Virus record (IMG/VR): IMGVR_UViG_2703719368_000014
Strand: one strand, 5' to 3'
Length of the DNA: 5,794 nt
DNA from: a virus
Lineage: Duplodnaviria; Heunggongvirae; Uroviricota; Caudoviricetes
Position 1 is the stretch's first letter. Every line of letters begins with the position of its first letter. A program made the translations under genes and the position numbers. The notes beneath the pieces are model-generated. The model had not been told where the DNA came from. It made no database searches and worked only from the letters and a program-made list of their open reading frames with translations. Shown piece after piece: positions 4,169 through 4,939 of this stretch.

Positions 4169-4876
4169 TCACGAACTTTTCAGCCACTCCCTTGCCTCGA
4201 TGTCATCCAGATGGCGAGATTGCTTCAGAATACCAGCTACATACTCCACCTTTGCTACTTGATGATAAGGCAACGTTATAGGCCTGTGATCCTGGTTAAT
4301 GCTTGTAAATTGGTATTCTCCATCTCTGTCATAGCCAAGAACCTTAATCATGTTGTGTCCTTCAACGGTTCTGACAAACACCTCATCACCCGGGAATACT
4401 TTGGTGTTAGGCTCAATGAGTACATATTCTCCTGATTTTATTCTGGGCCACATGCTGTCTCCTTTCACACGAAGACCAAAGGCATCTGGATCATCGCTAT
4501 AAATTTTGAGCCACCCATCGCGCTCTTCGGTCATCTCGATGGCACCATCAACACCAAGAATTGCCTCACCAACCACGCGCACTAACCCTTTTTTTAATTT
4601 GCCAACAAATGAAAGAGTATCTTCATCATTCGCTCCATTTAACGAAGTGCCGTGCTGAAGCCAAACAACATCAACGTTTAGAAATTTCGCAAGCGCATTC
4701 ATTTTTTCCTGACGCGGTAAAGACTCAGCATTAAACCATTTGCTAACGCCTTTGGACGAAAGAGAAAGGGCACGGGCTATAGCCATTCCCCTACCATGTT
4801 CATCAAGACCAGCTTCTTTACAGGCTTGCGCTAGCCGCTGGGCGAATTCTTTGCGCACTTTTTCATTCTGAACCAT
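4169..4876 (-). CDS. cI: CI-type prophage repressor (N-terminal HTH, C-terminal LexA-like S24 autopeptidase), 235 aa
   Basis: N-terminal HTH region (...GMAIARALSLSSKGVSKWFN...) and C-terminal S24 signature (GDSMWPRIKSGEYVLIEP plus downstream Lys in NMIKVLGY). Divergent from cro across an operator-rich intergenic region. No obvious SD; a leaderless start as in lambda pRM transcripts is plausible. Confidence 0.9.
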   Translation of the reverse strand: MVQNEKVRKEFAQRLAQACKEAGLDEHGRGMAIARALSLSSKGVSKWFNAESLPRQEKMNALAKFLNVDVVWLQHGTSLNGANDEDTLSFVGKLKKGLVRVVGEAILGVDGAIEMTEERDGWLKIYSDDPDAFGLRVKGDSMWPRIKSGEYVLIEPNTKVFPGDEVFVRTVEGHNMIKVLGYDRDGEYQFTSINQDHRPITLPYHQVAKVEYVAGILKQSRHLDDIEAREWLKSS

Positions 4877-4939
4877 GAGTACGATACTAAAGCACTTGCA
4901 AAAACTTTCAGTTCAACCATAATACGTACTGAAAGTACG
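4869..4939. promoter_or_regulatory. oR operator cluster: OR1 4925..4939, OR2 4901..4915, candidate OR3 4869..4883 (overlaps the cI start codon)
   Basis: OR1 is a perfect 15-bp palindrome CGTACTGAAAGTACG. OR2 reverse complement is TGAACTGAAAGTTTT. The candidate third site is TGAACCATGAGTACG. All share YGWAC-N5-GTWCR architecture; OR1-OR2 centres are 24 bp apart. Confidence 0.5.
4896..4923 (+). promoter_or_regulatory. Candidate pR promoter for cro-cII-O
   Basis: -35-like TTGCAA (4896..4901), 16-bp spacer, -10-like CATAAT (4918..4923). The predicted start falls inside OR1, about 25 nt upstream of the cro ATG. Confidence 0.4.

What the first reader, a model, noticed from the sequence alone, without database searches (positions are those of the whole stretch)
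4869..4939. oR operator set with a perfect 15-bp palindrome and a shared YGWAC half-site
CGTACTGAAAGTACG (4925..4939) is a perfect palindrome overlapping the predicted pR start. A second site lies 24 bp away in the pR spacer. A third candidate, TGAACCATGAGTACG, is centred exactly on the cI ATG, which would allow autorepression of a leaderless pRM transcript. This gives a testable operator model for this immunity type.
Basis: seen in the sequence. Interest (0 to 1): 0.4.

Follow-up and report, generated by a model that had tools for sequence, protein, structure and literature searches.

The report
Known phage 933W right operator

Summary
The window is a 933W-type Stx prophage immunity region. 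cI and Cro are 100% identical to those of phage 933W, and the cI-cro intergenic DNA is identical base for base. Two more copies of the motif lie upstream of N (oL1 1797-1811, oL2 1821-1835). The half-site statistics of these five sites match every textual statement in Bullwinkle et al. 2012 (PMC3317979), which describes five natural 15-bp operators studied by EMSA, DNase I footprinting, in vitro selection and mutagenesis. The held papers also report that OR1 binds tightest (relative Kd 1: 13.6: 26.4), that binding is not cooperative, and that OR3 occupancy represses PRM. One detail is wrong. OR1 is not a perfect 15-bp palindrome. It has perfect 6-bp arms around a GAA centre, and positions 7 and 7' are not symmetric. 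That asymmetry is itself reported to raise affinity. The same layout recurs in HK022-type, Salmonella and Providencia phages: YGWAC-N5-GTWCR sites at 0, +32/33 and +56/57 from the cI ATG. Verdict: a correct reading of an already known element, of low interest.

The parts
4925..4939 (.). oR1, CGTACTGAAAGTACG. The highest-affinity repressor site. It lies just downstream of the pR -10 and over the expected pR start.
   Evidence: Annotated oR1 in 933W, phi24B and phi345. No mismatch to the motif. Identical DNA to 933W. OR1 is described as the tightest natural site and as differing from the consensus at positions 3, 3' and 7' (PMC3317979), which fits this sequence.
4901..4915 (.). oR2, AAAACTTTCAGTTCA (reverse complement TGAACTGAAAGTTTT). 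It lies in the pR spacer and overlaps the annotated pRM -35.
   Evidence: Annotated oR2 (the phi24B record places it one base to the left). It is the only half-site among the ten that lacks G at position 2, as the paper states for OR2.
4869..4883 (.). oR3, TGAACCATGAGTACG, centred on the A of the cI ATG (4876). This is the autorepression site for pRM.
   Evidence: Annotated oR3. No mismatch to the motif. Centre coordinate. Repression of PRM through OR3 occupancy is reported in PMC5977221 and PMC4848623.
4896..4923 (+). pR: -35 TTGCAA (4896-4901), 16-nt spacer, -10 CATAAT (4918-4923).
   Evidence: Consensus scan. It overlaps the annotated pR of 933W at window 4896-4923.
4884..4911 (-). pRM (pM): -35-like CTGAAA and -10 TAGTAT on the minus strand. 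The -10 ends 7 nt before the cI ATG, so the transcript has no leader or a 1-nt leader.
   Evidence: GenBank pM feature. phi24B annotates the pRM start at window 4877. The sequence is read out, and no Shine-Dalgarno sequence is visible upstream of the ATG.
4169..4876 (-). cI repressor, 235 aa, with an HTH_3 domain and a Peptidase_S24 domain.
   Evidence: ORF, Pfam, 100% identity to 933W CI.
4955..5182 (+). cro, 75 aa.
   Evidence: ORF, HTH families in Pfam, 100% identity to 933W Cro.
1797..1811 (.). oL1, TGAACCAATAGTTCG.
   Evidence: No mismatch to the motif. It coincides with the 'OL1 repressor binding site' of GQ499361, locus 214-229 plus an offset of 1583. Identical to 933W.
1821..1835 (.). 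oL2, AGAACTATTGGTACG, 24 bp from oL1.
   Evidence: One mismatch to the motif. It overlaps the 'OL2 repressor binding site' of GQ499361. Identical to 933W.

Best explanation
The region 4869-4939 is the right operator (OR) of a phage 933W-type prophage. It holds three 15-bp, partly symmetric sites for dimers of the CI repressor (and, by analogy with other lambdoid phages, Cro), placed between the divergent cI and cro genes. The half-site is nGWACY (positions 1-6), arranged around a central A/T base pair. A repressor dimer on oR1 (tightest) and oR2 occludes pR. oR2 also overlaps the pRM -35 region, from where bound repressor stimulates pRM. oR3 binds only about 2-fold more weakly than oR2 and sits on the pRM start and the cI ATG, so it shuts pRM off. 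This keeps repressor levels low and makes the prophage easy to induce. Shown: site identity with the studied operators, promoter geometry, recurrence at oL, and conservation in related phages. Taken from the literature: binding affinities, absence of cooperativity, and the effects on PRM. Inferred: that the pRM transcript has no leader, and that Cro uses the same sites.
For: (1) The exact coordinates match the annotated oR1, oR2 and oR3 in 933W and phi345; phi24B matches for oR1 and oR3 and places OR2 one base to the left. (2) The DNA is 100% identical to 933W, phi24B, phi345 and Stx2 phage I over 4840-4990, and cI and Cro are 100% identical to 933W. (3) The motif is enriched: 3 exact hits against 0.02 expected. 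The third exact hit and a one-mismatch hit lie 24 bp apart upstream of N, at the annotated OL1 and OL2. (4) The ten half-sites give G at position 2 in 9 of 10 (the exception is in oR2), A and C at positions 4-5 in 10 of 10, T in 7 and C in 3 at position 6, and A/T at the centre. These are the statements made in PMC3317979 about the five natural operators. (5) pR and pRM overlap the sites as in other lambdoid switches. (6) Literature: relative Kd for OR1:OR2:OR3 is 1:13.6:26.4, binding is not cooperative, there is no OL3, and partial OR3 occupancy represses PRM (PMC5977221; PMC4848623). (7) Comparative: six phage oR regions compared with the window (two nearly identical E. coli phages, Salmonella SI5 and MS2_LVA, Providencia PSTNGR2lys, and HK022-type HK75, with cI N-terminal identity down to about 49%) carry sites at 0, +32/33 and +56/57 from the A of the cI ATG. 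Among the 933W-like Salmonella phages, substitutions in oR1 and oR3 fall only at the degenerate positions 1 and 3. The recognition-helix residues K42 and S45-K46-W47-F48-N49 are invariant across the four aligned repressors.
Against: Nothing substantive. oR2 taken alone is a weak motif match (2 mismatches, a level not enriched in the window). I could not read the primary footprinting papers (J Bacteriol 2004 and 2011), so the binding data come from later papers of the same laboratory.
Confidence: 0.97

Rival explanations
1. The oR1 inverted repeat acts as an RNA hairpin, either an intrinsic terminator on the minus strand or a structure in the 5' end of the cro mRNA, and not as a protein-binding site.
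For: The consensus scan lists a terminator-like site on the minus strand at 4939-4925: a 6-bp stem with 3 G-C pairs and a 3-nt loop, followed by a T-rich tail.
Against: The scan finds 1 such site against 0.6 expected in shuffles. Folding of 4905-4950 on the minus strand gives -8.1 kcal/mol and z = -1.79, with 13 of 200 shuffles as good, and the minimum-energy fold does not use the oR1 hairpin. No leftward gene ends upstream of it. The same 15-mer type recurs at oR3, oL1 and oL2, and the site is described as the tightest repressor site.
Confidence: 0.01
2. Only oR1 is a real operator. The oR2 and oR3 matches arise by chance or from other constraints: oR3 from cI coding constraint, oR2 from promoter sequence.
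For: oR2 has 2 mismatches to YGWACN5GTWCR, a level at which the window holds 20 matches against 15.9 expected. The left half of oR3 lies inside cI codons 1-3.
Against: Both sites keep fixed positions (+32/33 and 0) in phages whose flanking DNA has diverged. The right half of oR3 is non-coding and is still conserved, with changes only at positions 1' and 3'. The literature reports three bound sites in OR with measured relative affinities.
Confidence: 0.015
3. The sites bind a protein other than CI or Cro, such as a host factor.
For: None found.
Against: The sites co-vary in position with cI homologues across phages of four host genera (E. coli, Salmonella, Providencia and HK022-type coliphage), the recognition helix is conserved, and direct binding data exist for purified 933W repressor.
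Confidence: 0.005

Closest known systems
Right operator OR (OR1, OR2, OR3) of Shiga-toxin phage 933W (Plunkett et al. 1999 annotation; work of the Koudelka and Friedman laboratories)
   Same: Everything. The DNA is identical over 4840-4990, the CI and Cro proteins are identical, the annotated site coordinates are identical, and the oL1 and oL2 15-mers are identical.
   Different: Nothing within the finding. Elsewhere, the window differs from the 933W record by a few SNPs outside the operators, a replaced segment to the left of about 1684 and a length difference of about 440 bp.
Right operator of coliphage HK022 and HK75
   Same: 15-bp sites with TGAAC or TGTAC half-sites. oR3 is centred on the A of the cI ATG, with oR2 at +33 and oR1 at +57. 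The recognition-helix residues K..SKWFN are conserved, and Cro is 45% identical.
   Different: CI is only 26% identical overall and about 49% identical in the N-terminal domain. HK75 is annotated with three oL sites and an extra OFR site downstream of cro, whereas 933W has two oL sites. From my own knowledge, not tested here, HK022 repressor binds highly cooperatively; 933W repressor is reported not to.
Phage lambda OR (OR1-OR3, PR/PRM switch)
   Same: Divergent cI and cro genes, three sites overlapping PR and PRM, 24-bp OR1-OR2 spacing, OR3-mediated negative autoregulation, and a leaderless cI message from PRM. The lambda facts come from my own knowledge and from PMC3342100.
   Different: Lambda operators are 17 bp with an unrelated sequence. 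Lambda repressor binds OR1 and OR2 cooperatively and needs OL3-OR3 looping for OR3 occupancy. 933W repressor is reported to be non-cooperative, to lack OL3, and to fill OR3 at nearly the OR2 concentration.

Membership tests
Phage 933W immunity type (the same repressor and operator specificity) | CI repressor and Cro identical or nearly identical to those of 933W | tested here: met
   235 of 235 and 75 of 75 residues identical.
Phage 933W immunity type (the same repressor and operator specificity) | Operator sequences oR1-3 and oL1-2 identical to those of 933W | tested here: met
   100% identity over 4840-4990. The oL1 and oL2 15-mers are identical and the SNPs lie outside them. Coordinates coincide with the GenBank operator features.
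Phage 933W immunity type (the same repressor and operator specificity) | Purified repressor protects these sites and regulates PR and PRM | not testable with these tools
   Reported for the identical protein and DNA in PMC3317979, PMC5977221 and PMC4848623. The primary J Bacteriol papers are not held.
Lambdoid tripartite right operator (CI/Cro switch) | Divergent genes for an HTH plus S24-peptidase repressor and a small HTH Cro, flanking a short intergenic region | tested here: met
   cI 4169-4876 (minus strand) and cro 4955-5182 (plus strand), with a 78-bp gap. Pfam HTH_3 plus Peptidase_S24 in cI and HTH families in Cro.
Lambdoid tripartite right operator (CI/Cro switch) | Three related, partly symmetric sites overlapping back-to-back promoters, with the same motif recurring at oL upstream of N | tested here: met
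   oL1 and oL2 at 1797-1835 lie upstream of N at 1196-1645.
Lambdoid tripartite right operator (CI/Cro switch) | Pairwise cooperative binding at OR1-OR2 and three sites at OL (the lambda paradigm) | not testable with these tools
   The literature says 933W lacks both. In the window only two oL-type sites are seen. This is a known deviation of 933W from lambda, not of this window from 933W.
HK022-like operator architecture | 15-bp YGWAC-N5-GTWCR sites at about 0, +33 and +57 from the cI start codon, and a conserved recognition helix | tested here: met
   Positions are 0, +32 and +56 in the window and 0, +33 and +57 in HK75 and the Providencia phage. K42 and S45-N49 are invariant.

The most novel reading that the evidence does not exclude
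The 933W-type, Salmonella, Providencia and HK022-type repressors share the same half-site core (YGWAC), the same 15-bp spacing, the same site positions and invariant recognition-helix residues, although their N-terminal domains are only about 49-63% identical. Immunity specificity between these types may therefore depend mainly on positions 1, 3, 6 and 7 and the centre. Partial cross-recognition between 933W and HK022-type operators might exist, for example 933W repressor binding HK022 OR1 TGAACCATAAGTTCA. I found no statement on this in the papers I could read.
Probability: 0.12. Interest if true: 0.3.

Novelty: already known. Interest (0 to 1): 0.07.

Why it matters
The 933W switch controls Shiga toxin 2 production in enterohaemorrhagic E. 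coli. Its near-equal affinities for OR2 and OR3 are the published explanation for the low repressor levels and 'hair-trigger' induction of Stx prophages (PMC5977221). Finding it in this window only confirms that the window carries a standard 933W-type immunity region, which is present in 427 of 5426 complete E. coli genomes. No new biology follows from the finding itself.

Tried and rejected
(1) I tried to read the primary papers (Koudelka et al. 2004, PMC524892; Tyler et al. 2004, PMC524894; Bullwinkle and Koudelka 2011, PMC3133280). None is held, so the binding data are cited through later open-access papers from the same group.

(2) A full-text search for '933W' plus 'leaderless' gave three papers. 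The one I read speaks only of lambda cI, so the leaderless claim for 933W stays an inference from geometry and annotation.

(3) The low-stringency motif scan (up to 2 mismatches) is not enriched (20 found, 15.9 expected), so it cannot be used to nominate further sites.

(4) The 2-mismatch hit at 5287-5301 (TCAACTAACTATTCA), between nutR and cII, was considered as an equivalent of the HK022 OFR site, which is annotated downstream of cro in HK75. I rejected it because both half-sites lack the position-2 G, whose loss costs more than 6-fold in affinity.

(5) The terminator-like call on the minus strand at oR1 was rejected after folding.

(6) The 'perfect palindrome' claim was rejected by direct reverse-complement comparison.

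Full report
**What is in the sequence.**

| Site | Coordinates | Sequence |
|---|---|---|
| oR1 | 4925-4939 | CGTACTGAAAGTACG |
| oR2 | 4901-4915 | AAAACTTTCAGTTCA (reverse complement TGAACTGAAAGTTTT) |
| oR3 | 4869-4883 | TGAACCATGAGTACG |

Their centres are 24 bp and 32 bp apart. The centre of the third site, 4876, is the A of the ATG of the minus-strand ORF 4169-4876.

The first site is not a perfect 15-bp palindrome. Its reverse complement is CGTACTTTCAGTACG, so the arms CGTACT and AGTACG are perfect but positions 7 and 7' (G and A) are not symmetric.

The degenerate pattern YGWACN5GTWCR has three exact matches in the 5794-bp window against 0.02 expected, and none of 200 shuffles reached three. 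With up to two mismatches the pattern is not enriched (20 found, 15.9 expected). The second site therefore draws its support from position, not from motif statistics.

**Context.**
- The minus-strand ORF 4169-4876 is a CI-type repressor with HTH_3 and Peptidase_S24 domains.
- The plus-strand ORF 4955-5182 is a small HTH Cro.
- The ORF 5321-5617 is CII.
- The ORF 1196-1645 (minus strand) is an N antiterminator.
- The ORF 2199-3245 (minus strand) is a eukaryote-like protein kinase.

A consensus scan finds one sigma-70-like promoter between cI and cro: -35 TTGCAA at 4896-4901, a 16-nt spacer and -10 CATAAT at 4918-4923. This puts oR2 in the spacer and oR1 over the expected start.

On the other strand, TAGTAT (4889-4884) is a -10 that ends 7 nt before the cI ATG. 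No Shine-Dalgarno sequence lies between them.

**Identity.**
- The segment 4100-5300 is 99.5-99.6% identical to phage 933W, phi24B, Min27 and many other Stx phages.
- Over 4840-4990 the window is identical base for base to 933W, phi24B, phi345 and Stx2 phage I.
- CI (235 of 235) and Cro (75 of 75) are identical to the 933W proteins.
It also annotates pR and pM.
- phi345 repeats these features. phi24B repeats oR1 and oR3, places OR2 one base to the left (window 4900-4914), and annotates the pRM start at window 4877, one base before the ATG.
- The remaining exact motif match (1797-1811) and a one-mismatch match 24 bp away (1821-1835) lie upstream of N. They coincide with the 'OL1' and 'OL2 repressor binding site' features of GQ499361. 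Both 15-mers are identical to 933W, and the four SNPs in that segment fall outside them.
- The whole window is 100% identical to a prophage in the chromosome of E. coli ERL05-1306.
- The 101-bp oR segment occurs in 427 of 5426 complete E. coli genomes.

**What is already published.** Bullwinkle et al. 2012 (PMC3317979) describe five natural 933W repressor sites (OR1-3 and OL1-2). Each is 15 bp and rotationally symmetric about a central base pair. They were studied by EMSA, DNase I footprinting, in vitro selection and systematic base substitution.

Their textual statements can be checked against the five sites in this window:
- Position 2 is G-C in all half-sites except one in OR2. Here it is G in 9 of 10, and the exception is the AAAAC half of oR2.
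- Positions 4 and 5 are invariant A and C. Here they are so in 10 of 10.
- Position 6 is T in seven half-sites and C in three. The window gives the same counts.
- The central pair is A-T or T-A. This holds for all five sites.
- OR1 departs from the consensus at positions 3, 3' and 7'. This fits CGTACTG-A-AAGTACG.

All statements hold, so these are the same sites. The same paper reports that the 7' change and the T at positions 3 and 3' raise affinity. The imperfection in the palindrome is therefore part of what makes OR1 the tightest site.

Later papers from the same laboratory give further results (PMC5977221; PMC4848623):
- Relative dissociation constants are OR1 = 1, OR2 = 13.6 and OR3 = 26.4.
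- There is no cooperativity between OR1 and OR2.
- There is no OL3.
- Partial OR3 occupancy in a lysogen represses PRM and keeps repressor levels low.

The primary 2004 and 2011 J Bacteriol papers are not in the held library.

**Comparative check.** I compared six phage oR regions with the window: two nearly identical E. coli phages (Lambda_4B5, PhiR12_2), Salmonella phages SI5 and MS2_LVA, Providencia phage PSTNGR2lys, and HK75, which carries HK022-type operator annotation.

- In all of them, matches to the motif lie at 0, +32/33 and +56/57 from the A of the cI ATG. The one gap is oR2 of MS2_LVA, which falls just below the cut-off.
- Among the 933W-like Salmonella phages the flanks and spacers have diverged.
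- The repressors share invariant residues K42 and S45-K46-W47-F48-N49 in the recognition-helix region across the four aligned proteins. Overall identity drops to 26% for HK75, and N-terminal-domain identity to about 49%.

The operator layout is therefore a conserved property of an HK022-like group of switches, of which 933W is the best-studied Stx member.

**Mechanism.**
- Shown here: site identity, promoter overlap, recurrence at oL and conservation.
- From the literature: repressor dimers bind oR1 much more tightly than oR2, and oR2 about twice as tightly as oR3, without cooperativity. Occupancy of oR1 and oR2 represses pR, and occupancy of oR3 represses pRM.
- Inferred: oR2 overlaps the pRM -35 (CTGAAA, 4911-4906), so repressor bound there is placed to activate pRM as in lambda. 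The pRM transcript starts at or one base before the ATG and so has essentially no leader. Cro uses the same sites.

**Rivals.** A terminator-like call on the minus strand at oR1 is not supported by folding. The fold gives z = -1.79, and the minimum-energy structure instead pairs the shared 9-nt cores of oR1 and oR2. Chance, or coding constraint, as the source of oR2 and oR3 is countered by their positional conservation in diverged phages and by the published binding data.

**Verdict.** The element is the already annotated and biochemically characterised OR of phage 933W, so it is already known and of low interest.

Noticed in passing
window 1797-1811 and 1821-1835: Two further copies of the operator motif, 24 bp apart, lie upstream of N. 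They are oL1 (TGAACCAATAGTTCG) and oL2 (AGAACTATTGGTACG), identical to 933W. No third oL site is seen, in line with the published absence of OL3.
   Followed up: yes
window about 1600-1683, junction near 1684: To the left of about 1684 (the 5' end of N and its leader) the window does not match 933W by megablast, but it matches the PhiR12 phages at 99%. The best 933W alignment of the whole window is split into 3 pieces and spans about 440 bp more in 933W. There is therefore a mosaic junction or indel between nutL and N relative to the reference phage.
   Followed up: partly
window 4928-4936 and 4904-4912: oR1 and oR2 share the same central 9 bp in opposite orientation (ACTGAAAGT and ACTTTCAGT, positions 4-12 of each 15-mer). 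Transcribed RNA could pair these two cores (minimum-energy fold). It probably only reflects two sites of one family with opposite polarity of the asymmetric centre.
   Followed up: partly
L012 (HK75) 537-608; L011 (Providencia phage) 537-608; L009 and L010 (Salmonella phages): HK022-type, Providencia and Salmonella phages carry YGWAC-N5-GTWCR sites at the same positions relative to the cI ATG. Their recognition-helix residues are invariant although their repressors are much diverged. This raises the question of how immunity specificity is kept apart.
   Followed up: partly
window 5287-5301: A weak motif match (TCAACTAACTATTCA, 2 mismatches) lies between nutR and cII, at a place roughly analogous to the OFR site annotated in HK75. 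Both half-sites lack the critical position-2 G, so it is probably chance.
   Followed up: partly
window 2199-3245 (minus strand) and 3767-4108 (minus strand): A eukaryote-like Ser/Thr protein kinase (stk; Pkinase, E = 2e-46) and a DUF3024 protein lie between N and cI. These are the known accessory genes of the 933W immunity region.
   Followed up: no
window 1-5794: The whole window is 100% identical to a chromosomal prophage of E. coli strain ERL05-1306. The 101-bp oR segment is present in 427 of 5426 complete E. coli genomes, 185 of them at 99% identity or more.
   Followed up: yes
window 4169-4876 (cI), residues L107-G108: The CI linker region contains Leu-Gly (AILGVDG) and no Ala-Gly. From my own recollection of Koudelka et al. 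2004, 933W repressor autocleaves at a Leu-Gly bond. This was not checked here.
   Followed up: no
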